Sequence record: MN850610.1
Length of the DNA stretch: 64,000 nucleotides
From: Escherichia phage Andreotti
Reading direction: 5' to 3' (one strand)
Shown: positions 1-23,956 of the stretch, one piece after another
How the letters are laid out: every line of letters begins with the position of its first letter
Position numbering within the stretch: the first letter of the stretch is position 1
Translations under genes and position numbers: made by a program
The notes under the pieces: model-generated
What the model saw: the letters and a program-made list of their open reading frames with translations, nothing else
The model's database searches: none
What the model was told of the DNA's origin: nothing

Positions 1-90
1 TGCAGACCACACTCAGGTCTGGCTCTCTATAAAAACCTACCTGCACAAATCTAAAATGATTTTTCTTGCCCGACCTGAGTGTGGTCTGCA
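1..90. repeat. perfect 19-bp inverted repeat (arms 1-19 and 72-90); may extend beyond window start
   Basis: tgcagaccacactcaggtc (1-19) is the exact reverse complement of gacctgagtgtggtctgca (72-90). Confidence 0.8.
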
Positions 91-227
91 CGTTTTGAAA
101 ATGAAAAAGCTCTTTGGAGATTATCTGCACAGTTTGAAAATGAATTTTCTCTTTGGAGTTCAAAATTCTCTCTACAGATTTCTCTACAGAACTCTACCTG
201 CACAATTCTGAAATGAAAAAGCCCTCC
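41..227. repeat. four degenerate direct repeats CTGCAC-N-TTTGAAAATGAA-(AAAAGC/TTTTCT)-CTTTGGAG (approx 41-68, 86-118, 125-158, 198-227)
   Basis: read directly: ctgcacaaatctaaaatga / ctgcacgttttgaaaatgaaaaagctctttggag / ctgcacagtttgaaaatgaattttctctttggag / ctgcacaattctgaaatgaaaaagc. Confidence 0.7.
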
Positions 228-289
228 TTACCTGAAAAATTTACCAGATAAGAAAGGCTTAGGCTATTGTGAATATCCTACAGAGTTTC

Positions 290-1075
290 TTAGTTCTTTG
301 CGTCTAAGAAGGTAACTTCTGGTGAAGAGAAAACTGTCTCGATATCCTCATCAGTTCTTGCATAGATATAAGTATCTGCATCACTGCCAAATGTTACTGC
401 AATCCTGTGATTGCTCTTCGACAGGTGGGTAACTAGAGCGTTACTCAGAGACATCTTTTCAACCGGAGGGTTACTTTGATGTATCTTACCTTTTCTTCGT
501 CTGAAGAGGGTAACTGCGTTATCTGTGAACACTGCTACACCTGCAAAGTATTCTGGTTCACAGTAGTTCTTCCAACCTGAGCGTAACTTGTGGTACATCT
601 CTCCTTCGTAGACATAAAGATACACATCTACACTCTTCATCACCTGATTAATGATAACTGTGACGGCTTGAGGGTCTAGCCCACCGATACCTGCACCAAT
701 CATAGGTAAACCAACCTTCTTCAACTGGTTGACTTCACAGTATCTGTTAAGCTGCTTCAAAGATGACTCTAAAGCACTGTATCGGGCATCTTTACCAGTC
801 TTAAGCTGAGTGTAAAGGTTAGCTATACGGCCTTGTTCTAAACGTGCTACAGAGAAATTACCCAGTAAATTTTCACAGGGTTTGTGGCCTATACCACCTG
901 CATATAGATAAACTTCTGTATCGGTCTCATATGCTTTTGGGTAAAGTTTAGAAATCTTGTCAGCGATACCTGCACCCATTAAATTCATACAGTTGCAACC
1001 GTGACCGATGATGTCAAACTTACCTTTATCAAATGCGGCAAAGATATCACCATTGATTATTTTTACAATACCCAT
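290..1075 (-). CDS. macro-domain-like (ADP-ribose binding/processing) protein, N-terminal half; C-terminal half unassigned
   Basis: N-terminus IINGDIF...DIIGHGCNCMNLMGAGIADKI fits the macro-domain pattern (GDIT...N...G.GV..AI); family assignment from motif only. Confidence 0.4.
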   Translation of the reverse strand: MGIVKIINGDIFAAFDKGKFDIIGHGCNCMNLMGAGIADKISKLYPKAYETDTEVYLYAGGIGHKPCENLLGNFSVARLEQGRIANLYTQLKTGKDARYSALESSLKQLNRYCEVNQLKKVGLPMIGAGIGGLDPQAVTVIINQVMKSVDVYLYVYEGEMYHKLRSGWKNYCEPEYFAGVAVFTDNAVTLFRRRKGKIHQSNPPVEKMSLSNALVTHLSKSNHRIAVTFGSDADTYIYARTDEDIETVFSSPEVTFLDAKN

Positions 1076-1276
1076 TTAACATCTCTCCCAAGACTCTTTA
1101 TCTTCTGAAGGTTTTACACGCTGTCCTTCGTGGTCTACCCAGATGCACCCACAACCTTCACAGATTACTGGCATTGCGTAGCCAGCTTTAAAGTCATCTT
1201 CAGTGATAAGACCTTTTAAGTCACCTGTATCACGTCCGAACATTTCGATAGAACAATCTTTACAGAAGTCAGCCAT
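1076..1276 (-). CDS. small Cys-rich (zinc-binding?) protein; start moved to ATG at 1276 (MADFCKDCS...)
   Basis: CxxC...CEGCGC motifs; GAGG Shine-Dalgarno about 10 nt upstream of the internal ATG; the upstream part of the track ORF overlaps the neighbouring gene. Confidence 0.4.
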   Translation of the reverse strand: MADFCKDCSIEMFGRDTGDLKGLITEDDFKAGYAMPVICEGCGCIWVDHEGQRVKPSEDKESWERC

Positions 1277-1496
1277 GAATAATTGCCTCTTGAATGATGA
1301 TACCTTTACCACAACGACTTTTAAAGTCTTCCAATGGTTCAGAGATGAAGCCACGTAAGCAGTCAGTGAATACTAAGTTCTTCCTGTAAGCTATCACATC
1401 ATTTGCTGTAAATGGGATGACCTCATTTCGTCCAATGAACACTGCTGACCTGATAAGCTTTCGTGTCTTTTTATCTCTGGCTAGTATTACTTTCAT
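1269..1496 (-). CDS. hypothetical protein
   Basis: co-directional ORF, 8-nt overlap with downstream gene; no recognisable motif. Confidence 0.4.
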   Translation of the reverse strand: MKVILARDKKTRKLIRSAVFIGRNEVIPFTANDVIAYRKNLVFTDCLRGFISEPLEDFKSRCGKGIIIQEAIIHG

Positions 1497-1797
1497 AGTT
1501 TACCTTCTCAGTTAGCTCATATAAATCAACATGCTCAATACTATCAATGTTGATATCAATCTTTTTGAAGCGTTCTATCACTTCGTTGTCAGTCATCCAT
1601 ATCAGACACCAATGATTCTGAATGGATTCTTCAAGAAGGTCAACACAATCTTTAAAAGTTTTTGTGTCACTTCTTGTTCCGACCACTGCAATTGTTCCAT
1701 ATAGCCACTTACCATTGCCGTAAGTTACTTGTGCTACACCAACCTCTTTATCTTTCTCGTAGTAAACGGCTACAAAATCTCTTCCATTAATCTGCAT
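1471..1797 (-). CDS. hypothetical protein
   Basis: co-directional ORF in tightly packed block. Confidence 0.45.
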   Translation of the reverse strand: MQINGRDFVAVYYEKDKEVGVAQVTYGNGKWLYGTIAVVGTRSDTKTFKDCVDLLEESIQNHWCLIWMTDNEVIERFKKIDINIDSIEHVDLYELTEKVNYESNTSQR

Positions 1798-1799
1798 AG

Positions 1800-2069
1800 T
1801 TACTTCCTCGTTTTAAGAACTGCTAAGATTTCTTTAGAGTCTGGTAAGAACCATGTGTAGTGATTCTCTTTGATTTCTGGATGAGTGTCAACCTTTATTT
1901 TGCACTCTTTACCAACATGCTTAAGCTGTGCTGTGACACCTTGCATAAAGATATGACACATCACATTATCCATAATGGTTGGTAAGAAGTCAATTCGCAT
2001 ATAAGTTTCTTTTGGTCGTGGTAACAGTAAGTAACCTTCTACATAGAAAGTGTCTTGATTCTCTGTCAT
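1800..2069 (-). CDS. hypothetical protein
   Basis: co-directional ORF, 2-nt gap to upstream gene. Confidence 0.45.
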   Translation of the reverse strand: MTENQDTFYVEGYLLLPRPKETYMRIDFLPTIMDNVMCHIFMQGVTAQLKHVGKECKIKVDTHPEIKENHYTWFLPDSKEILAVLKTRK

Positions 2070-2335
2070 TGCTGCTTATTCCCTAATAAAATCATGTCAA
2101 TAAGGTTATTAGCTTTAATTGTACACTGGTAAAAGCCGTCACGGTAGAACTCAAGTGCTTCTGCTACATCACTGCCTGTGTTGCCTTTGATGATATACCG
2201 TGACTCTTCTTGAGTGTACTTATCACTCTCACTTACTTGGGAGTTTTTGAATGTACTGTTCACTTTGTTCGTTGAACACCCTGACATAGTTATCAGTAAC
2301 ACAAACATTATAAAACTCTGGCTTAGTTTTTTCAT
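2066..2335 (-). CDS. o-spanin candidate (outer-membrane lipoprotein), overlapping the 3' end of the upstream gene
   Basis: N-terminal signal MKKLSQSFIMFVLLITMSGC with lipobox-like MSGC; start lies inside 2229-2576 in another frame, the classic overlapped Rz/Rz1 arrangement. Confidence 0.4.
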   Translation of the reverse strand: MKKLSQSFIMFVLLITMSGCSTNKVNSTFKNSQVSESDKYTQEESRYIIKGNTGSDVAEALEFYRDGFYQCTIKANNLIDMILLGNKQQ

Positions 2336-2576
2336 ATGTTAGTACCTCTTTTGTATGCTTATTCTTAGCAAGCACATCTTTCAAATCATTTTTGTAATTG
2401 GTGCTCAGTGTGACTAATCCTTCCTGATAAGCATCTTTAGCAACACTTATGAGCTTTTGATTGTTTAGCTCAGTTTCAGCAACTTGATAGTCTCTGTAAG
2501 AGTATCCTCCCCAGACACCTGCACCAACTAAGAAAACAATTATGAAAGTAGCTTGACAGAACTCTTTAAATGTCAT
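2229..2576 (-). CDS. i-spanin candidate (N-terminal TM anchor plus periplasmic helical domain)
   Basis: hydrophobic segment ATFIIVFLVGAGVWGGY then charged helical region; overlapped by lipoprotein ORF. Confidence 0.4.
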   Translation of the reverse strand: MTFKEFCQATFIIVFLVGAGVWGGYSYRDYQVAETELNNQKLISVAKDAYQEGLVTLSTNYKNDLKDVLAKNKHTKEVLTYEKTKPEFYNVCVTDNYVRVFNEQSEQYIQKLPSK

Positions 2577-2595
2577 TTAACAATCTCCTGAAATG

Positions 2596-2616
2596 AAAAA
2601 GGCTCCCGAAGGAGCC
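2596..2616 (-). terminator. intrinsic terminator (hairpin ggctcc-cgaa-ggagcc followed by U-run on minus-strand transcript)
   Basis: plus strand shows A5 then GC hairpin; downstream of gene ending at 2629. Confidence 0.55.
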
Positions 2617-2628
2617 TGTATCTTAACC

Positions 2629-3093
2629 TTAACCGAGGACTTTAGCAAGGATATTTGCAGCCATCGAAGAAGCTTTTGCAGCAGCAACTACGCCAGCTTT
2701 GACAGTGCTATCCTTGATAGCAGATACCGTTGCAGCATCAGTAAAGAGATAAGTAGTTGTTTTAGAACCACTTGTAAAGGAAAGCATAAGAGCAGTTTCC
2801 AGATTGAAAGAGCGATACGGAGCACCTTCTTTAACGATACCTTCAGCACCTAATTCTGAAGCCATCCCCATATCATAGATAGTCATCAGGTTTTCTTTGT
2901 GTGCTGTGGTTGAGCCAGAACCTTTTACGTGTTTCTTAACATTCAAAAGAGCACGATACTCTCGGATGTTACCGTCTGCTTTTACGTTGACAGCACGGAA
3001 AATTTTACCCTCAAAGTTGCTCTTGATAATGTTACGAACTACTTCAGATTTGTTTGCCGTAACGTCCAGTGCTACCGTAATGATATTGTTCAT
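2629..3093 (-). CDS. hypothetical protein
   Basis: co-directional ORF; no recognisable motif. Confidence 0.5.
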   Translation of the reverse strand: MNNIITVALDVTANKSEVVRNIIKSNFEGKIFRAVNVKADGNIREYRALLNVKKHVKGSGSTTAHKENLMTIYDMGMASELGAEGIVKEGAPYRSFNLETALMLSFTSGSKTTTYLFTDAATVSAIKDSTVKAGVVAAAKASSMAANILAKVLG

Positions 3094-3103
3094 AAGTTTT
3101 CTC

Positions 3104-3799
3104 TCAATGTTTAACTAACATGGTTTTGATGTGTGGAAGTATTCTGTTCACCTTCTGCACATTCTTCTCTGTGTCTTCTATAAAACATACTATATTAAAG
3201 TAAGGCAGAATGCAAGACTGAATCATCCTCACTTTCAAACTTTCTGCACTTATAGAGTTAGTCCCAAAACCACGCATAAAAAGCATGTAGTCATGCTCTG
3301 TGTTATGCCTTAAAAACATCTCAGTAGGTATTCTCTGAGATTCACCTCTCGCTGTCAAGAGTCCAATGGCAGCATGACTAGCAATTGCATCAATAATACT
3401 AAAGACATACGTTGGTTTTGCTCTTACAGAGTCAAGAAGATTAGTGTACTGTGAGAATGACCCATCAGTCAATTCCGTTGAGCAATCTTCGTGATTAAAA
3501 TTTGTAAGAACACCATCAATATCTGCTAAGATGAGGTTACCTTTTTCTACAAGGTCTTTATTGACTATGACTAAACTGTCACGTCTTACACCTATAGATT
3601 GTCCGGTCTCTTTGTCCACAACGTTCACAATTGGCTCTGATGTGTGAAACTCTTCAAGTGAACATACAACTTCTCTTGCAGTGTCTTCAAAATCCCTACA
3701 CTGTTCTGGAGTCCATACACAGGAATCAAGACCTAACTCATGAGGATGTAAGTCATAAGCATGGCACAGTACTTCATCAGACTTTTTTAATTTTTTCAT
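3104..3799 (-). CDS. HAD-superfamily phosphatase, possibly 5'(3')-deoxyribonucleotidase-like
   Basis: LILADIDGVLTNF resembles the DxDGVLxDF motif I of HAD/NT5C enzymes; motif sits about 90 aa from the N-terminus, so assignment is tentative. Confidence 0.35.
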   Translation of the reverse strand: MKKLKKSDEVLCHAYDLHPHELGLDSCVWTPEQCRDFEDTAREVVCSLEEFHTSEPIVNVVDKETGQSIGVRRDSLVIVNKDLVEKGNLILADIDGVLTNFNHEDCSTELTDGSFSQYTNLLDSVRAKPTYVFSIIDAIASHAAIGLLTARGESQRIPTEMFLRHNTEHDYMLFMRGFGTNSISAESLKVRMIQSCILPYFNIVCFIEDTEKNVQKVNRILPHIKTMLVKH

Positions 3800-4325
3800 G
3801 GTTTACCTTAGAAATGTTTATTGCAAATTCACATTGAGCGATGACTTTCATATTGTTATAGACATCTTGAGAGTATTTCTTAGCTTTAGGAATTTTGTAC
3901 GAATACCCAGCATTATATGATGCTAAAACTTTTTGTAAAGTCTTCTTTGACTTTGGCTGACCATGCACCTTTGTCCAAAACTCAAGCTCTTTGTGCGTTT
4001 CCTTCGCAGCATAGTCAAAGTCTTTTAAGAGTTTCTTTTTAGCCACATTAGGACTAATTTTGTTACGCTTTACAACAGTCTTCAAGTGATTCTGGAAAAT
4101 ACCATAATCATGTGTCTTTTTATTCTCTACCTTCAGACCTAACTCTGACTCTTGTAAGGCTATAGCAGCTAGAGTGATACCCCAACCTTTACCCATGTTA
4201 TTCTCACCATACTGGTAAGCTTTTAACATGTTTACTTTTTGGCTAATTGATAGCTCTGGGCAGTCAACTGCATAAGATAAGTGTGCTGTAAACATTAAGC
4301 ACAAACCTAGAATCAATTTCTTCAT
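3777..4325 (-). CDS. soluble lytic transglycosylase (SLT domain) with N-terminal signal peptide; endolysin candidate
   Basis: signal MKKLILGLCLMFTAHLSYA; SLT motifs AIALQESELG (catalytic Glu), GIFQ, SYNAGY. Confidence 0.65.
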   Translation of the reverse strand: MKKLILGLCLMFTAHLSYAVDCPELSISQKVNMLKAYQYGENNMGKGWGITLAAIALQESELGLKVENKKTHDYGIFQNHLKTVVKRNKISPNVAKKKLLKDFDYAAKETHKELEFWTKVHGQPKSKKTLQKVLASYNAGYSYKIPKAKKYSQDVYNNMKVIAQCEFAINISKVNHEKIKKV

Positions 4326-14095: not shown

Positions 14096-14199
14096 TTTAA
14101 CTTATCTCTCAATTCACAATAAGAAAGTCCTAAAAAGAATCCTAGTAAGACAGAACCTATGAACAAACCGATAATACTCTCTGCCATGTCTGACATCCA

Positions 14200-14238
14200 A
14201 TAAAAAGGTGATGTAAGCCTATCAAGACCCACATCACC
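14200..14238 (-). terminator. intrinsic terminator after nrdD (8-bp stem ggtgatgt/acatcacc, large loop, U-run)
   Basis: inverted repeat plus A5 on plus strand immediately downstream of nrdD stop at 14249. Confidence 0.45.
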
Positions 14239-14248
14239 TTGTCAAGTT

Positions 14249-15115
14249 TTACATAGAAATCCTGTCACGAATCTCAGCGATTTTTGCATCATTCATTCGG
14301 GATTCACCTTTAATCTTAGTCCATCCCAGATATCCGCACACCCTGTTAATCACAGAGATGTCATGTGAATGGCAAACCTCACATTCTTCAACATCAGCCT
14401 TTGGTCTGTTACCACAATGTTCACAGATTGCTAAGTCAAAGTTAAGTCCCTGATAGAAACCTTTCAACATACCTCTTGTAATACAACTTTTAAGTGCTGG
14501 TAAGTTTTCTGGGTTAGCTACCCTTACATACTGGATTCTGCCACCTCTACAGATATGGAAGAATGGCTCTTCTAAGTCCTGCTTCTCAAATGGTGAGATG
14601 TTTGCTGCAACATTCATATGGAAACTGTTTGTAAAGTATTCCTTGTCAGAAACGCCTTTAATAACACCAAACATATCTCTGAACTGTTTTAGCTGAGTTC
14701 CACACAATGACTCTGCTGGAGTGCCATATACTGCATACAGGAAGCCATCTTCATTCTTAAACTCTTCAGTTTTCATGTTAATGTATGCCAGAACATCGTA
14801 TGCAAAACTAGAACTTCCAACTTCATGAAGTCGTTTACCTTCAGCAAGAACAGATAACTCATCAAGAGCAGTAACCCCAAAAGAAGCTGTGAAGGATTTC
14901 ACAATATCCCAACCAACCTTGTCAGTAGGCTTCTTAGTCCCTTTATACAGACCACCTTGTGTGAATGCAAGAGGGTTAGAACTTGCTGGCATATTGGCAA
15001 TCATTTCGTAACGTTTCTTATGGAAGCTGCGAATCATTTCTAGGTACTTATCAAGCTCTTTCCAGAAATCTAAACCATTCTCTTTAGAATACTGGTAAAT
15101 CATTGGTAAGTTCAA
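14249..15115 (-). CDS. nrdD: anaerobic ribonucleoside-triphosphate reductase, C-terminal part (exon 2)
   Basis: glycyl-radical motif RVCGYLG and Zn ribbon CEHCG...CEVC at C-terminus; exon boundary not determined, track start is only the first Met. Confidence 0.7.
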   Translation of the reverse strand: MNLPMIYQYSKENGLDFWKELDKYLEMIRSFHKKRYEMIANMPASSNPLAFTQGGLYKGTKKPTDKVGWDIVKSFTASFGVTALDELSVLAEGKRLHEVGSSSFAYDVLAYINMKTEEFKNEDGFLYAVYGTPAESLCGTQLKQFRDMFGVIKGVSDKEYFTNSFHMNVAANISPFEKQDLEEPFFHICRGGRIQYVRVANPENLPALKSCITRGMLKGFYQGLNFDLAICEHCGNRPKADVEECEVCHSHDISVINRVCGYLGWTKIKGESRMNDAKIAEIRDRISM

Positions 15116-15935
15116 AGATACAGCACCAATGTTAGCACGACCTACATAAAACTCTTCACCATCTTCGTTATGGTATGGTGATAAAAACGCTCTACACTTG
15201 TTGTTCAGGTAAGTTCGCTACGCTTACCCCGCTTTATTCAAGCTGCTTACTGTCACCAGTAAGTCCAGACTATATCTTCTACTTATTTCTAAGTAGCGTA
15301 CCATTTCGAGTCGCTTGACCCTACACCGCTACATTCATCACGGTTAGTCGTTTGGCATTTAGATGTATTCAAATTCATGTTCAAAGTTATTATGTTCTTT
15401 TACACCCTTCAGTATTGAAGAGATAGTCTTGCGATTATACCCAAGTATCTTGGATAACTCTCGTATCGAGTTCGCAACAATAACTTCTTTTGTTACTTTG
15501 TGTGTAGCCTTCACAGCATATGAACGCTTACAAAACTTGTAGCAACCATTCTCATAACCTTCTTTAACATTCTCAGAATGAGTTCCCCATTCTAAGTTAG
15601 AAGCATGGTTATTCAGTTTGTTATCATCTTTGTGTTTTACAATTGGAAGATTGTTCGGGTTAGGTACATATTTCTCAGCAACTAACCTATGAACATACAT
15701 GTCACGATTCTTCTTACCGTAAAACCTCACTTTCATATACCCAGTGTTGGATTTCCACTGCTTAAGTTCTACACCATTTTTCCTAAAGACTCTTCCGTCT
15801 TCAGTAACATGATAATTTGGCATGTAATACTCCTATGTTGTATAGTTTCTTACATCGTACATCATTTAGCACAGGATTGTCTACATCTGTAGAGTTTCCC
15901 TGTTTAGGCACGTTTTAGATGAGCTATAGAGCCTG
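15116..15935 (-). mobile_element. intervening sequence splitting nrdD, probably a self-splicing (group I-like) intron carrying an HNH homing endonuclease; boundaries approximate
   Basis: nrdD reading frame broken by stop at 15936 and resumed downstream; insertion contains a free-standing HNH ORF plus non-coding flanks; T4-type phages carry introns in nrdD. Confidence 0.45.
15359..15823 (-). CDS. HNH homing endonuclease (intron-encoded)
   Basis: HNH motif HKDDNKLNNHASNLEWGTHSEN; C-terminal helix-turn-helix-like region. Confidence 0.6.
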   Translation of the reverse strand: MPNYHVTEDGRVFRKNGVELKQWKSNTGYMKVRFYGKKNRDMYVHRLVAEKYVPNPNNLPIVKHKDDNKLNNHASNLEWGTHSENVKEGYENGCYKFCKRSYAVKATHKVTKEVIVANSIRELSKILGYNRKTISSILKGVKEHNNFEHEFEYI

Positions 15936-17135
15936 TTAACCCATCGGTGAAATAACCTTGCCAGAACGCTCAAAAGCTTCTGCTACAGCACCATGACCAG
16001 ATACACTTAAGAAATCTGGATACATTGCTTTAGAGCAACACTCAATAGCTTTACTGTACAGGTGTCCTTGACAGATATTCTCATCGTGTCTCTTCTGGTC
16101 ATAAATATAAACCAGTTTAGGGAATACAACAGGCTTCTTGCTCTTACCTTGTCCATTCATACGAACATCTAGGAGAGTACTTGCAATCATGTATTGCAGT
16201 CGGTTATCTTCATTGGACATATCTGAGTCAAGTAACCCGAATGTCAAAGTTGTAAATGCAAAATCCCCACGGCTACAAGGCACAGTGTTTAGCTTCATTT
16301 CAAGTGACTGGAAACCTTGAGTCAGTTCAATCTGTAGCTGCTCCATGACATAGTTGTGGTAATGTTCTTTAGGAATACCATAAGCTGTTGCTTTTTCAGC
16401 ATGGTAACGTAGAGACTTCTTAGCATACGGTACAAGTACCTTATCAATCTCTGCTAAAGTAAAGCCACCAAATTGCTGTGCAGTTGCTGAAAGAACTACA
16501 TCACCAATAACCTGTAAGGCTGATAGTACAGACTTTGGTTCACAATATTCAATGCCAGACATTTCAAAGCCACCTTTCAGGACTTTACCAATGTCAAACA
16601 GACAACAGTTGATACCACCAAAAATTAGGTCTCTTAAGTCATGGATATAAATAAACCCTTTTTCAATGGCTTCAAGTTCCTCTGGTGTTAAGTGGTACTG
16701 TTTAAAGATTTCTTTAGTCAGGTAACCACGAATAATTGAACCTTTTGTAGAAATTAAACTGCTGTCAAAATTAGCGTTTTCTCGGTCACCTAAGAAGAGT
16801 GTATCCTTAGTCTTCTGGTAAAGTTCATCCCAATTTTGAGCAACTTCTTTACGGTAATTTCTATATGTTGAGTAAGACTCATAAATCTCGTGATTGACTT
16901 CTGCCAAAGCACCCTCAACAATACTGTGAATATCATTTACTGAAATTAGCAAATTATTCTGTTTAGTAGATTTTACCAGAATCCTCATAAATGCTGACTC
17001 AAGAGCTTGAGTAACATCTGGTGGAAGCTCTTTATAACCAACTCTGTTAGCTGACTTTGTGACTGCTACTAAAACTTTTTTGATATCAGGTTCTTCAAGT
17101 GAGCCATTCTTTTTAATAATCTGTACTTTGTTCAT
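15936..17135 (-). CDS. nrdD: anaerobic ribonucleoside-triphosphate reductase, N-terminal part (exon 1)
   Basis: about 400 aa upstream partner of the glycyl-radical C-terminal part, adjacent to nrdG; terminates at an in-frame stop before the insertion. Confidence 0.6.
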   Translation of the reverse strand: MNKVQIIKKNGSLEEPDIKKVLVAVTKSANRVGYKELPPDVTQALESAFMRILVKSTKQNNLLISVNDIHSIVEGALAEVNHEIYESYSTYRNYRKEVAQNWDELYQKTKDTLFLGDRENANFDSSLISTKGSIIRGYLTKEIFKQYHLTPEELEAIEKGFIYIHDLRDLIFGGINCCLFDIGKVLKGGFEMSGIEYCEPKSVLSALQVIGDVVLSATAQQFGGFTLAEIDKVLVPYAKKSLRYHAEKATAYGIPKEHYHNYVMEQLQIELTQGFQSLEMKLNTVPCSRGDFAFTTLTFGLLDSDMSNEDNRLQYMIASTLLDVRMNGQGKSKKPVVFPKLVYIYDQKRHDENICQGHLYSKAIECCSKAMYPDFLSVSGHGAVAEAFERSGKVISPMG

Positions 17136-17154
17136 TATTGCCCCTTTACATGTT

Positions 17155-17176
17155 AAAAAGGTCTCCGAAGAGACCC
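17155..17176 (-). terminator. intrinsic terminator (ggtctc-cgaa-gagacc plus U-run)
   Basis: A5 then hairpin on plus strand between genes ending 17184 and starting 17135. Confidence 0.5.
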
Positions 17177-17183
17177 TTTCATT

Positions 17184-17390
17184 TTAAATCTTTTTAGAAA
17201 ACTTCGCAAAGAGTTCTCTTAGTTTTTCAGTGATACCTAACTGTATCTCTAATATTTCGAAGATAACCCATAGTAACATGGCTCCAAACAATGAACCTTG
17301 TTCAAAGTCAGTAAATAGGTTAACAATAAGCATACCAATCACAATAGCTGGTGCATCAACAACCAAACCTTCCCAAATGCGTTTAAGCAT
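17184..17390 (-). CDS. small membrane protein
   Basis: hydrophobic segments VVDAPAIVIGMLIVNLF and LFGAMLLWVIFEIL. Confidence 0.4.
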   Translation of the reverse strand: MLKRIWEGLVVDAPAIVIGMLIVNLFTDFEQGSLFGAMLLWVIFEILEIQLGITEKLRELFAKFSKKI

Positions 17391-17625
17391 TATTCACCTC
17401 TGCCATAAAATTCTGTAGCGTCCCAACAGGTTTTAGGTTTTGTCCATCAGTTTTCATGATGAATGGCATCTGACGAACTGGCATCTGTGCAATATCCATC
17501 AGGTCTGATAGCTCATAGTCCTGTCCTAACATTCTCACAACATGGTCAATACCACGAGCTTTTGCAAAATTCTTTGCAGTCTCACACTGAGGGCATCCAG
17601 TTTTGGAGTAAATTATATAAGTCAT
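17383..17625 (-). CDS. glutaredoxin-like redoxin (RNR electron donor)
   Basis: CPQC active-site motif near N-terminus, 80 aa, directly downstream of nrdB. Confidence 0.6.
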   Translation of the reverse strand: MTYIIYSKTGCPQCETAKNFAKARGIDHVVRMLGQDYELSDLMDIAQMPVRQMPFIMKTDGQNLKPVGTLQNFMAEVNNA

Positions 17626-22922: not shown

Positions 22923-23423
22923 TCAAGCACAATTTGCTTTCATTACCTTATGGATTCTTTTTTCAGCATCTTCATAAGTTTCTTTAGTAATAAACTTAAT
23001 TGCTGCAATATTGGCATTGTAGAAGAGTCTGAGCTTCGAGTCAATCCTTTTTGTCATTACATCGAACTTATGCTGAAGGTTTGCTTCACCATAAACTAGG
23101 CCACCTTTTGTGTAGTAGGTTTGGATAATGTAAAAATCAAAAGATTCCTTTCCAAAGCTCTCAATATCTTTTTTAATATACTCAGAAGAAGTTTCATAAG
23201 TCATCCAATCACTCTCCTTAGTGACTACCTTCTTCCGAGTCTTCCCAGCAACTTTTCTTTTGGTCACACTATTAAGCTGCTTCTTACCCAAATAGTACTG
23301 TCCAGTCTTTTTGCAGTACACTAGGTAGACAAAACCAAAGTGCTTTGCTGGGTCAACTTCACCACATAGTGAAACCCAATGTCCATATTCAGGGCAATTG
23401 CCAAAACCTTTAACTTTAATCAT
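22923..23423 (-). CDS. GIY-YIG-type endonuclease-like protein (possible homing endonuclease)
   Basis: N-terminal FGFVYLVYCKKTGQYYLGKK resembles the GIY...YIG module. Confidence 0.4.
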   Translation of the reverse strand: MIKVKGFGNCPEYGHWVSLCGEVDPAKHFGFVYLVYCKKTGQYYLGKKQLNSVTKRKVAGKTRKKVVTKESDWMTYETSSEYIKKDIESFGKESFDFYIIQTYYTKGGLVYGEANLQHKFDVMTKRIDSKLRLFYNANIAAIKFITKETYEDAEKRIHKVMKANCA

Positions 23424-23956
23424 TCATGAGCTTCTCCGTGATTTGTAAACTCTCTATGGAGTTCTTCTCTTTTCTTTTTGACAACTGATTCAGCCTCAGT
23501 GATAGAGTCAAATAAACCTAGATGGTAGCATACTTTATTATGCTTGACTTGTGCAGCCCACCTACCCCTTTGCTTGTGGTAATATACACCCTTCACACCA
23601 GACTTATTATCTTTTCTTTTGACTGCATTGCAGTTGTTGTCTGACCTGCTACACTCTCTCAAATTGTCGAACCAGTTGTCGTGCCTGATACCATTCTTGT
23701 GGTCAACAAATTTTGGGAGGTATCCTTTCATATACAAGAATGCCAGTCTGTGTGCTGCATATCTTTTTCCGAAGAGTTTTATATAAATATAACCACTATG
23801 ATGTTTAAGACCTGCTACTGAGCCAGCTTTGGCCTTACCTTTTCTACCAACTAACCAAGTAAAGACCCCTGTTTCGGGGTCATAGTGCAGGTATTCTTTA
23901 AGAGTTTGTTGAGTTAACATTTGGTGTCCACCCATACTTATCAAAAGTGAAATCAT
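23420..23956 (-). CDS. HNH homing endonuclease (AP2-like C-terminal domain), paralog of 33512-34024
   Basis: HNH region FVDHKNGIRHDNWFDNLRECSRSDN; shares N-terminal YDPETGVFTW with the other HNH gene. Confidence 0.6.
   Translation of the reverse strand: MISLLISMGGHQMLTQQTLKEYLHYDPETGVFTWLVGRKGKAKAGSVAGLKHHSGYIYIKLFGKRYAAHRLAFLYMKGYLPKFVDHKNGIRHDNWFDNLRECSRSDNNCNAVKRKDNKSGVKGVYYHKQRGRWAAQVKHNKVCYHLGLFDSITEAESVVKKKREELHREFTNHGEAHE

What the first reader, a model, noticed from the sequence alone, without database searches (positions are those of the whole stretch)
14249..17135. nrdD interrupted by an intron-like insertion carrying an HNH homing endonuclease
The anaerobic RNR gene is split into an N-terminal ORF (15936-17135) ending at a stop codon and a C-terminal ORF (14249-15115) carrying the glycyl-radical motif RVCGYLG and a Zn ribbon. 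The roughly 820-nt gap contains a free-standing HNH endonuclease ORF (15359-15823) and non-coding flanks. This is the expected layout of a self-splicing intron with a homing endonuclease; T4-type phages are known to carry introns in nrdD, but there the endonuclease belongs to another family.
Basis: partly seen in the sequence, partly recalled or inferred. Interest (0 to 1): 0.55.

Follow-up and report, generated by a model that had tools for sequence, protein, structure and literature searches.

The report
Group I intron in phage nrdD

Summary
The window comes from a Felixounavirus (95.9% identical to UAB_Phi87). On the minus strand, nrdD is interrupted by a 742-nt insertion (15197-15938), not about 820 nt, because exon 2 starts at 15196.

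Removing the insertion joins ...SPMG|CRAFL... without a gap. This restores the codon for the catalytic cysteine (T4 Cys290 equivalent).

The insertion has the group I hallmarks:
- U·G at the 5' splice site in a 7-bp P1, a 7-bp P10 and a terminal G.
- Helices P3-P9.2 that closely resemble the T4 td intron, but without P2.

The HNH ORF (I-HmuI family) sits in the P6a loop. With the ORF present, Rfam scores the window copy below threshold. Natural ORF-less alleles of the same intron in sister phages pass it.

Related phages show three states: no intron, ORF-less intron and full intron. Intron presence is tightly linked to a roughly 55-nt exon-2 haplotype, which looks like a co-conversion tract.

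The same intron and endonuclease occupy the same site in an rV5-like coliphage and in a Vibrio phage. The T4-type nrdD intron sits about 120 codons upstream and encodes a GIY-YIG enzyme.

Two GenBank records already annotate this exact splice. It is ordinary and essentially known, and splicing and cleavage remain untested.

The parts
15939..17135 (-). nrdD exon 1 (399 codons: ATP-cone plus the N-terminal half of the NrdD barrel). It ends ...TCA CCG ATG GGT (SPMG).
   Evidence: The last base, U (15939), forms the U·G pair of P1.
15197..15938 (-). Group I intron, 742 nt. It starts UAA (an in-frame stop) and ends ...CAACAAG (terminal G at 15197).
   Evidence: The identical junction gives GenBank proteins QXV81758.1 and AXY86276.1.
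15918..15931 (-). Internal guide sequence. Intron nt 8-14 (CUCUAUA) pairs with exon 2 UGUAGAG to form P10. Intron nt 15-21 (GCUCAUC) pairs with exon 1 GAUGGGU to form P1.
   Evidence: Read from the sequence and checked.
15857..15912 (-). 5' half of the catalytic core: P3 5' strand (15912-15907), P4 5' strand (15903-15898), P5 hairpin (15893-15880), P4 3' strand (15876-15871), P6, and P6a 5' strand (15864-).
   Evidence: Rfam partial hit at 15806-15903, 17 bits. Helix table and coordinates.
15359..15823 (-). HNH homing endonuclease ORF (154 aa) looped out of P6a. Shine-Dalgarno AGGAG at 15834-15830. The stop codon (15361-15359) lies inside the 3' strand of P6a/P6.
   Evidence: HNH_3 E=2.6e-10 and NUMOD1 below cut-off. 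I-HmuI, PDB 1u3e, E=5.7e-11 over residues 3-145. The catalytic H and N residues are kept. Coordinates.
15197..15366 (-). 3' half of the core: P6a/P6 3' strands, P7 5' strand (GACUA, 15349-15345), P7.1, P7.2, P3 3' strand (15302-15297), P8 (15296-15279), J8/7 plus P7 3' strand (AAGAUAUAGUC; UAGUC at 15272-15268), P9 (15263-15246), P9.1, P9.2 and the terminal G.
   Evidence: Rfam Intron_gpI 35 bits, E=6e-7, at 15246-15426. About 71% identical to the 3' core of the T4 td intron and 78% to the U5 nrdD intron..
14249..15196 (-). nrdD exon 2 (315 codons plus stop). It starts TGT AGA GCG (CRA...; the Cys is the T4 Cys290 equivalent) and contains the Zn ribbon and the glycyl-radical motif RVCGYLG.
15143..15196 (-). 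Exon 2 positions +1 to +54: the haplotype tightly linked to intron presence, a putative co-conversion or cleavage-immunity tract.
   Evidence: 10 intron-bearing against 8 intron-less alleles. Fixed differences at +18, +33, +39, +48 and +54, near-fixed at +3, +12 and +26, and none in 290 nt of exon 1.
14205..14240 (-). Terminator-like hairpin (16 pairs plus a T run), starting 9 nt after the nrdD stop codon.
   Evidence: Meda annotates a terminator at the same place.

Best explanation
The 742-nt insertion at 15197-15938 (minus strand) is a mobile group I intron of the T4-td-like (IA2-type) kind.

Inferred splicing mechanism. nrdD is transcribed as one pre-mRNA. The ribosome stops at the UAA that forms the first three intron bases. 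The RNA folds: P1 pairs exon GAUGGGU with the guide GCUCAUC, with U·G at the splice site. P3-P9.2 form the core, and P7 forms the guanosine-binding site. An external guanosine attacks after U15939. P10 (CUCUAUA with UGUAGAG) aligns exon 2, and the terminal G (15197) is released. The exons are joined to read ...SPMG-CRAFL.... This produces a 714-aa NrdD whose catalytic cysteine codon is the first codon of exon 2.

Inferred mobility. The P6a loop carries an I-HmuI-family HNH endonuclease gene with its own Shine-Dalgarno sequence. In mixed infections the enzyme most likely nicks or cuts intron-less nrdD alleles near the insertion site. Repair from the intron-bearing genome then copies in the intron together with about 55 nt of exon 2.

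What is shown and what is inferred. Shown here by sequence and comparison: the exact junction, the fold, the family of the endonuclease, the three allelic states, and the linked exon-2 tract. Inferred: splicing itself, endonuclease activity, and its cleavage position.
For: Junction:
- The spliced product aligns gap-free to solved NrdDs: 9d3x at E=5e-78 and T4 1h78 at E=7e-76.
- Intron-less Felixounavirus alleles are collinear with the junction.
- The same junction reproduces GenBank QXV81758.1 and AXY86276.1 exactly.

Intron identity:
- Window hits to RF00028 score 35 bits (E=6e-7) and 17 bits.
- ORF-less alleles, 97-98% identical in the shared parts, score 60.4, 55.4 and 54.4 bits against a gathering score of 50.
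- The 3' core is about 71% identical to T4 td and 78% to the U5 nrdD intron.
- The full-core alignment to td shows the same helices minus P2.
- Every helix from P1 to P9.2 is complementary in Felix-type, Vibrio F95, phita32, T4 td and U5. Compensatory changes occur in P3, P6a, P7.1, P8, P9, P9.1 and P9.2.

Need for splicing:
- There is no start codon between the stop at 15220-15218 and the TTG at 15115. The codons for CRAFLSPYHNEDGEEFYVGRANIGAVS, which include the Cys aligned with T4 Cys290, can therefore only be expressed after splicing.
- The exons are under strong purifying selection: 100 synonymous against 10 nonsynonymous codon differences versus Bas63, and 97 against 20 versus Meda.

Endonuclease:
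- HNH_3, I-HmuI 1u3e at E=5.7e-11, and relatives labelled I-BasI and I-KsaIII.
- The H/N/N residues are conserved.
- Codon differences are 14 synonymous to 6 nonsynonymous, and 27 to 9.

Mobility:
- Three allelic states occur among 245 records.
- There are two independent ORF deletions and one frameshifted ORF.
- The exon-2 tract from +3 to +54 is linked to intron presence, with 22% and 18.5% divergence against 2-9% elsewhere.
- The same intron plus a homologous HNH sits at the same G|C site in rV5-like phita32 and in Vibrio phage F95.
Against: - No RNA or enzyme data exist for this element in the papers I could search.
- The window copy itself does not reach the Rfam gathering score, because the 465-nt ORF sits in P6a.
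- P2 is absent, which differs from td.
- The residue before the catalytic His is Lys, not the Asp of I-HmuI. This position also varies in the other relatives.
- NUMOD1 is below its cut-off (18.8 against 22.8 bits).
- The linked exon-2 haplotype could reflect shared ancestry of the intron-bearing alleles, or selection for P10 pairing, rather than repeated co-conversion.
- The comparison sample is small: 10 against 8 alleles.
- No promoter-like site beyond chance was found for the HNH gene.
Confidence: 0.92

Rival explanations
1. The intron splices, but it is now an immobile passenger. The HNH protein would be inactive or no longer have targets, and the present distribution would reflect descent and ordinary recombination rather than ongoing homing.
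For: ORF loss has happened at least twice, and a frameshifted ORF exists in EC106. The Asp preceding the catalytic His in I-HmuI is Lys here. NUMOD1 is below threshold. The linked exon-2 haplotype could simply be identity by descent.
Against: The ORF is intact in the window and in most full-length copies, with more synonymous than nonsynonymous change (14 to 6 and 27 to 9). The H/N/N motif is kept. Linkage decays abruptly beyond about +60 nt and is absent in exon 1. This fits short conversion tracts better than clonal descent. momo carries the intron and the exon-2 tract next to a divergent exon 1, 78.7% identical.
Confidence: 0.2
2. nrdD is a truly split gene. A homing endonuclease cassette cut it in two, and the two halves are translated separately and assemble into an active enzyme without RNA splicing, as in Aeromonas phage Aeh1 nrdA.
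For: Most GenBank records annotate two separate nrdD CDSs. A functional split RNR of this kind is documented for Aeh1 nrdA (cited in PMC3653736).
Against: The segment coding for the catalytic Cys and the next 26 residues has no start codon and follows an in-frame stop, so both polypeptides would lack it. ORF-less alleles still carry a 292-316-nt insertion that matches the group I model above threshold. P1, P10, U·G and the terminal G are present.
Confidence: 0.03
3. The insertion is an intein, or nrdD is a decaying pseudogene inactivated by the insertion.
For: Inteins are known in phage RNR genes (PMC3653736). The gene looks broken to gene callers.
Against: For the intein: TAA is the first codon of the insertion, the HNH ORF is in a different frame from exon 1, and the insertion contains non-coding structured RNA. 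For the pseudogene: both exons are intact in more than 90 genomes, and about 100 synonymous against 10-20 nonsynonymous codon differences show purifying selection.
Confidence: 0.02

Closest known systems
Phage T4 td group I intron with I-TevI (subgroup IA2)
   Same: The catalytic core is nearly the same. J8/7-P7 (GAUAUAGUC), P7.1/P7.2, P9 and P9.2, and the 3' tail ...CUGAACA(U/A)AA(U/A)G all align. The ORF is looped out of P6a. The intron begins with UAA right after ...GGGU. Both sit in a nucleotide-metabolism gene.
   Different: The host gene is nrdD, not td. P2 is missing. The endonuclease is HNH (I-HmuI-like), not GIY-YIG. The ORF's 3' end runs into the P6a/P6 3' strand.
T4/U5 nrdD (sunY) intron with I-TevII
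   Same: Same host gene. The core is related: 78% identity over 111 nt, and U5 scores 105 bits to RF00028. The guide sequence is almost identical (GCUCAUG against GCUCAUC), pairing with similar exon ends (UAUGAGU| against GAUGGGU|).
   Different: The insertion site is about 120 codons upstream: after ...DAFQAYE, not at SPMG|C. The endonuclease is GIY-YIG (PMC2988022). The ORF lies 3' of P9, not in P6a.
Felixounavirus nrdD intron as already deposited (Bas63/JohannRWettstein MZ501086, Meda MH586731, UAB_Phi87, FSL SP-010 and others)
   Same: It is the same element, 94-97% identical. Bas63 and Meda annotate nrdD as a two-piece join whose product equals my splice. UAB_Phi87 is described as having nrdD split by a homing endonuclease (PMC4837284).
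   Different: Nothing of substance. I found no paper giving the RNA structure or any splicing or cleavage experiment. Felix O1 itself was reported to be intron-free (PMC3185647).
I-HmuI / I-BasI / I-TwoI family of intron-encoded HNH endonucleases from Bacillus and Staphylococcus phages
   Same: Sequence homology runs over nearly the whole protein to I-HmuI (1u3e). tblastn finds ORFs labelled I-BasI and I-KsaIII. Both are carried in group I introns of phage DNA-metabolism genes. From my own knowledge, these enzymes nick one strand a few bases from the insertion site. That would fit the one-sided exon-2 tract.
   Different: The host is a phage of Gram-negative bacteria and the target gene is different. 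The residue before the catalytic His is Lys, not Asp. Whether the enzyme nicks or makes a double-strand cut is unknown.
HNH-carrying introns of rV5-like phages (for example Pectobacterium phage CB7, splicing shown by RT-PCR; PMC7344957)
   Same: rV5-like coliphage phita32 has a homologous intron and a homologous 169-aa HNH at the identical SMG|C site of nrdD. CB7 shows that such HNH introns in RNR genes do splice.
   Different: The CB7 experiments covered terminase, DNA polymerase, nrdA and nrdB, not nrdD. The phita32 nrdD has a second intron upstream.

Membership tests
Group I catalytic intron (Rfam RF00028) | The covariance model score reaches the curated gathering score (50 bits): the window copy itself. 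| tested here: inconclusive
   No hit at gathering. With E-value reporting there are two partial hits: 35 bits (E=6e-7) at 15246-15426 and 17 bits at 15806-15903. The 465-nt ORF in the P6a loop splits the match.
Group I catalytic intron (Rfam RF00028) | The covariance model score reaches the gathering score: natural ORF-less alleles of the same intron. | tested here: met
   RPN213 60.4, REP9 55.4 and momo 54.4 bits. These are 97-98% identical to the window intron in the shared parts.
Group I catalytic intron (Rfam RF00028) | The 5' exon ends in U, paired to G of an internal guide sequence (P1). P10 pairs the guide with the 3' exon. | tested here: met
   P1 is GAUGGGU/GCUCAUC with a terminal U·G. 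P10 is CUCUAUA/UGUAGAG. Each has 7 pairs.
Group I catalytic intron (Rfam RF00028) | The last intron base is G. | tested here: met
   The intron ends ...CAACAAG at 15197. The same holds in F95, phita32 and td.
Group I catalytic intron (Rfam RF00028) | Conserved core helices P3-P8, including P7 and J8/7, supported by covariation. | tested here: met
   All helices are complementary in five divergent introns. Compensatory changes occur in P3, P6a, P7.1, P8 and P9, while P7 (GACUA/UAGUC) is invariant. This was a hand-built helix table, not a shuffled-control statistic.
Group I catalytic intron (Rfam RF00028) | Precise removal restores an intact, conserved reading frame, and intron-less alleles exist. 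| tested here: met
Group I catalytic intron (Rfam RF00028) | Guanosine-dependent self-splicing. | not testable with these tools
   This needs RT-PCR or in vitro GTP labelling.
Subgroup IA2 (T4 td/nrdB/nrdD type) | Extra P7.1/P7.2 hairpins between P7 and P3', and a td-like core sequence. | tested here: met
   CCGU...GCGG and GGGUC...GACUC lie at 15343-15308.
Subgroup IA2 (T4 td/nrdB/nrdD type) | P2 helix between P1 and P3, as in td. | tested here: not met
   Only 5 nt (UAAAA) separate the guide sequence from P3. U5 nrdD, F95 and phita32 also lack it. I treat this as a variation within the subgroup, not as an exclusion.
HNH homing endonuclease, I-HmuI-like (Pfam HNH_3) | HNH_3 domain above the curated cut-off, and homology to I-HmuI. 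| tested here: met
   40.2 bits against a cut-off of 24.8. 1u3e at E=5.7e-11 over residues 3-145.
HNH homing endonuclease, I-HmuI-like (Pfam HNH_3) | The catalytic His and the Asn residues of the beta-beta-alpha-metal motif are present. | tested here: met
   VKHKDDNKLNNHASNLEWGTHSEN aligns with I-HmuI H75, N83, N87 and N96. The D74 equivalent is Lys.
HNH homing endonuclease, I-HmuI-like (Pfam HNH_3) | C-terminal DNA-binding module (NUMOD1 / helix-turn-helix). | tested here: inconclusive
   NUMOD1 scores 18.8 bits, below the cut-off of 22.8. However, the region aligns to the I-HmuI C-terminal domain.
HNH homing endonuclease, I-HmuI-like (Pfam HNH_3) | Site-specific cleavage or nicking of the intron-less allele. 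| not testable with these tools
   There is only indirect support: the exon-2 haplotype tract.
Intein | An in-frame insertion translated together with the host protein. | tested here: not met
   TAA is the first codon of the insertion, and the HNH ORF is in a different frame.
Split gene expressed as two polypeptides (Aeh1 nrdA type) | Both halves have their own translation start, and together they cover all essential residues. | tested here: not met
   There is no start codon upstream of 15115 in the exon-2 frame. The catalytic Cys and the 26 residues after it would be lost.

The most novel reading that the evidence does not exclude
The SPMG|C-site intron may have arisen from a T4-type nrdD (sunY-like) intron that moved to a second site in the same gene. 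The two introns share almost the same guide sequence (GCUCAUG and GCUCAUC), and the two exon ends are alike (UAUGAGU| and GAUGGGU|). Reverse splicing into the look-alike site would explain this, followed by capture of an I-HmuI-type HNH gene in P6a in place of the GIY-YIG gene. The resulting element would then have spread across unrelated phage groups (Felixounavirus, rV5-like phages, a Vibrio phage). It may act as a weapon that damages intron-less competitors in mixed infections.
Probability: 0.15. Interest if true: 0.45.

Novelty: already known. Interest (0 to 1): 0.2.

Why it matters
It matters mainly for annotation. Most of the more than 90 deposited Felixounavirus genomes that carry this element list two nrdD fragments plus a stray endonuclease. 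The correct annotation is one 714-aa NrdD made by splicing.

The phage population also offers a natural series: empty site, full intron, frameshifted endonuclease gene, two independent ORF deletions, and a short linked exon tract. That series would be convenient for studying the gain-decay-loss cycle of homing endonuclease genes and co-conversion.

The intron sits exactly in front of the catalytic cysteine codon. It occupies the same site in three unrelated phage groups. This is one more example of introns targeting the most conserved sequence of an essential enzyme. None of this would surprise a specialist.

Tried and rejected
- Rfam at gathering threshold on the whole window gave no hit. The explanation is the ORF in P6a, not absence of an intron.
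- The sigma-70 promoter scan of 14100-17400 found 8 sites against 9.1 expected, so nothing can be said about a separate promoter for the HNH gene.
- An RNAfold of the region around the HNH start suggested no convincing sequestration of the Shine-Dalgarno sequence, and I make no claim on it.
- I searched for other td-like introns in the window with the J8/7-P7 motif RAGATATAGTCY. Only the known site matched exactly, and the one-mismatch hits are within chance.
- tblastn of the HNH protein against the window found only weak paralogy, at 23636-23848.
- A MAFFT alignment of full-length and ORF-less introns misplaced the 5' part. I therefore trimmed the P6a loops by hand and checked helices one by one. 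I did not use the count of structure pairs, so no shuffled-control statistic is offered. P5 in those three is therefore not counted as support.
- I did not build my own covariance model, because the ORFs in the relatives would split the matches.
- Literature searches for Felixounavirus plus 'group I intron' (0 papers) and related terms found no structural or experimental description.
- Intein, split-gene and pseudogene readings were considered and rejected, as given under the rival explanations.
Full report
**What is in the window.** The region belongs to a Felix O1-like myovirus (Ounavirinae, Felixounavirus). The stretch 14249-17135 is 95.9% identical to UAB_Phi87 and matches 359 phage records.
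- The 399-aa N-terminal ORF (15936-17135) carries an ATP-cone and positions 1-250 of the Pfam NRDD profile.
- The C-terminal ORF carries NRDD positions 264-560 and the glycine-radical domain.
- The 154-aa ORF between them (15359-15823) is an HNH_3 endonuclease with a weak NUMOD1 match.

nrdB, a glutaredoxin gene and a small membrane-protein gene lie upstream. nrdG lies downstream. A strong terminator-like hairpin starts 9 nt after the nrdD stop codon.

**The exact junction.** The exon-2 frame is open upstream of the TTG at 15115, as far as 15217, and reads RTYLNNKCRAFLSPYHNEDGEEFYVGRANIGAVS. I joined ...TCA CCG ATG GGT (ending at 15939) to TGT AGA GCG... (starting at 15196). This gives a 714-aa protein.
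- It aligns without a gap across the junction to solved class III reductases: SPMG-CRAFLSPY against PMGCRSFLQGW in 9d3x (E=5e-78) and T4 NrdD 1h78 (E=7e-76).
- In the T4-like U5 sequence, this Cys lies exactly 290 residues before the glycyl-radical Gly. With the published numbering (Gly580, from my own knowledge of the T4 NrdD literature) this makes it Cys290, the catalytic cysteine.
- The insertion is therefore 742 nt (15197-15938). Its first three bases are the TAA that ends the N-terminal ORF.

**Is it a group I intron?** Rfam at gathering threshold finds nothing in the window. With E-value reporting there are two partial Intron_gpI hits: 35 bits (E=6e-7) at 15246-15426 and 17 bits at 15806-15903. 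The reason for the low score is the ORF.

Some sister phages (REP9, RPN213, momo, BPSELC-1, SP2) carry the same intron without the ORF, at 316 or 292 nt. It is 97-98% identical in the shared parts. These copies score 55.4, 60.4 and 54.4 bits against a gathering score of 50.

The structure can be read directly from the sequence:
- P1 pairs exon GAUGGGU with intron nt 15-21 (GCUCAUC), with the canonical U·G at the splice site.
- P10 pairs intron nt 8-14 (CUCUAUA) with the first seven bases of exon 2 (UGUAGAG).
- The intron ends in G.
- P3, P4, P5, P6, P6a, P7 (GACUA/UAGUC), P7.1, P7.2, P8, P9, P9.1 and P9.2 are all present.

After trimming the P6a loop, the core aligns along its whole length with the T4 td intron, except that P2 is missing. 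The helices stay complementary in the Vibrio phage F95, phita32, T4 td and U5 nrdD introns through compensatory changes. For example, P3 is CGUGCC/GGUACG, UCUAUC/GAUAGA, UCUGCC/GGCAGA or CAUCC/GGAUG, and P9 is CUUACUG/CAGUAAG or CUGCAUG/CAUGCAG. This check was made by hand, helix by helix, without a shuffled control.

**The endonuclease.** The ORF sits in the loop of P6a, as I-TevI does in td. It has an AGGAG seven bases before the ATG (15834-15830). Its stop codon lies inside the 3' strand of P6a/P6. In F95 and phita32 the homologous ORFs read five codons further, into P7.

The protein is homologous over residues 3-145 to I-HmuI (PDB 1u3e, E=5.7e-11). tblastn finds relatives labelled I-BasI and I-KsaIII. 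The His and Asn residues of the HNH motif are kept, while the Asp before the His in I-HmuI is Lys here. That position varies among the relatives. Codon differences to Bas63 and Meda are mostly synonymous (14 to 6 and 27 to 9).

**Population evidence for mobility.** I searched with a 300+300-nt query made from the spliced junction. It finds 245 records in three states:
- contiguous nrdD (span 599; KhF1, FO1a, HY02 and many others);
- ORF-less intron (span 891-915);
- full intron (span 1341).

In the evenly spaced sample of 60 rows, about 13 are full and about 8 are ORF-less. Most of the rest are intron-less.

The ORF has been lost at least twice, with different breakpoints. The REP9/momo type keeps an in-frame 12-codon remnant. 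EC106 has a frameshifted ORF.

I compared 10 intron-bearing alleles with 8 intron-less alleles:
- Fixed differences lie only at exon-2 positions +18, +33, +39, +48 and +54. Near-fixed differences lie at +3, +12 and +26.
- There are none in 290 nt of exon 1.
- Divergence between the two groups is 22% and 18.5% in the first two 30-nt bins of exon 2, and 2-9% everywhere else.

That is what a short, one-sided co-conversion tract would look like. A stretch retained because it resists the endonuclease would look the same.

momo combines the intron and this tract with a divergent exon 1, 78.7% identical. Both exons are under strong purifying selection in intron-bearing phages: about 100 synonymous against 10-20 nonsynonymous codon differences. 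The gene is therefore in use, which requires splicing.

**Beyond Felixounavirus.** The rV5-like coliphage phita32 and Vibrio phage F95 have a homologous intron with a homologous HNH gene at the identical site. The HNH is 38.7% identical at the protein level in the F95-type Vibrio phage F101. The junctions read SMG|CRSFL and YMG|CRSLL. Each phage also has a second, different insertion further upstream in nrdD.

The classical T4-type nrdD intron (U5 record) sits about 120 codons upstream, after ...DAFQAYE. It carries a GIY-YIG-type ORF 3' of P9 (PMC2988022). Its guide sequence is almost the same as here, and the two exon ends are alike. That allows, but does not show, a move between the two sites.

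**What is already known.** The Felix O1 genome paper reported no introns in that phage (PMC3185647), and its close relative FO1a is indeed intron-less at this site. The UAB_Phi87 paper describes nrdD as split by a homing endonuclease gene and notes the same in HB-2014 and JH2 (PMC4837284).

GenBank records for Bas63/JohannRWettstein and Meda annotate nrdD as a two-piece join. Applying my junction to those genomes reproduces their deposited proteins exactly. The BASEL paper states that intron boundaries associated with homing endonucleases were annotated by comparative genomics (PMC8594841).

I found no paper that gives the RNA structure or tests splicing or cleavage. Splicing of comparable HNH introns in RNR genes was shown by RT-PCR in phage CB7 (PMC7344957).

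**Verdict.** The element is a T4-td-like group I intron without P2. It carries an I-HmuI-family HNH homing endonuclease gene in P6a and is inserted directly before the catalytic cysteine codon of nrdD.

It is ordinary in kind and already recognised in database annotation, so interest is low. The main practical value is correcting the annotation of nrdD in most deposited relatives. The allele series would also make a convenient study system.

Noticed in passing
window 22923-23956 (minus strand): Two free-standing homing-endonuclease-type genes sit in tandem just downstream of the exonuclease gene. One is a 178-aa HNH_3 plus AP2-like protein (23420-23956). The other is a 166-aa SegE-type GIY-YIG protein (22923-23423). 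UAB_Phi87 lists only one 498-nt hypothetical ORF at this place, so the HNH-AP2 gene may be an extra insertion in this phage.
   Followed up: partly
L007 (Escherichia phage momo, MN850580) 988-3448: It carries the ORF-less intron. The last 300 nt of exon 1 are only 78.7% identical to the window, while the first 300 nt of exon 2 are 96.3% identical. This is a mosaic whose breakpoint lies at or near the intron.
   Followed up: partly
L021 (Escherichia phage EC106, ON210138) 416-688: The intron is 743 nt and the HNH ORF is cut short to 273 nt. This looks like a frameshifted, decaying endonuclease gene. The record's note says 'Phage intron'.
   Followed up: no
L004 (REP9), L007 (momo), L005 (RPN213): There are two independent ORF deletions. 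The 316-nt form keeps the Shine-Dalgarno sequence, the ATG and an in-frame 12-codon remnant (MPNNFEYEFGYI in REP9). The 292-nt form has different breakpoints, with short sequence repeats at the joins.
   Followed up: partly
L013 (phita32, PQ758395) 161-3630; L008 (Vibrio phage F95, OZ196198) 50-4184: Both phages have nrdD in three or more pieces. Besides the intron at the ..MG|C site, each has a second ORF-carrying insertion upstream. In phita32 it lies after ...TLTSVNG, and its 3' flank contains a GAGAUAGUC-type group I motif. F95 also annotates exon 3 as two CDSs (3144-3803 and 3804-4184), which I did not examine.
   Followed up: partly
L003 (phage U5 nrdD, AY262145) 195-440, compared with window 15918-15945: The T4-type nrdD intron, at a different site, uses nearly the same internal guide sequence (GCUCAUG) on a similar exon end (UAUGAGU|) as the intron here (GCUCAUC on GAUGGGU|). 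This could reflect common descent, with a move between look-alike sites.
   Followed up: no
H118 (Salmonella phage ST11, MF370225) 74927-75519: This is an intron-less junction spanning 593 nt instead of 599, and it is annotated as two nrdD CDSs. It may be a small deletion or frameshift in nrdD, or a sequencing error.
   Followed up: no
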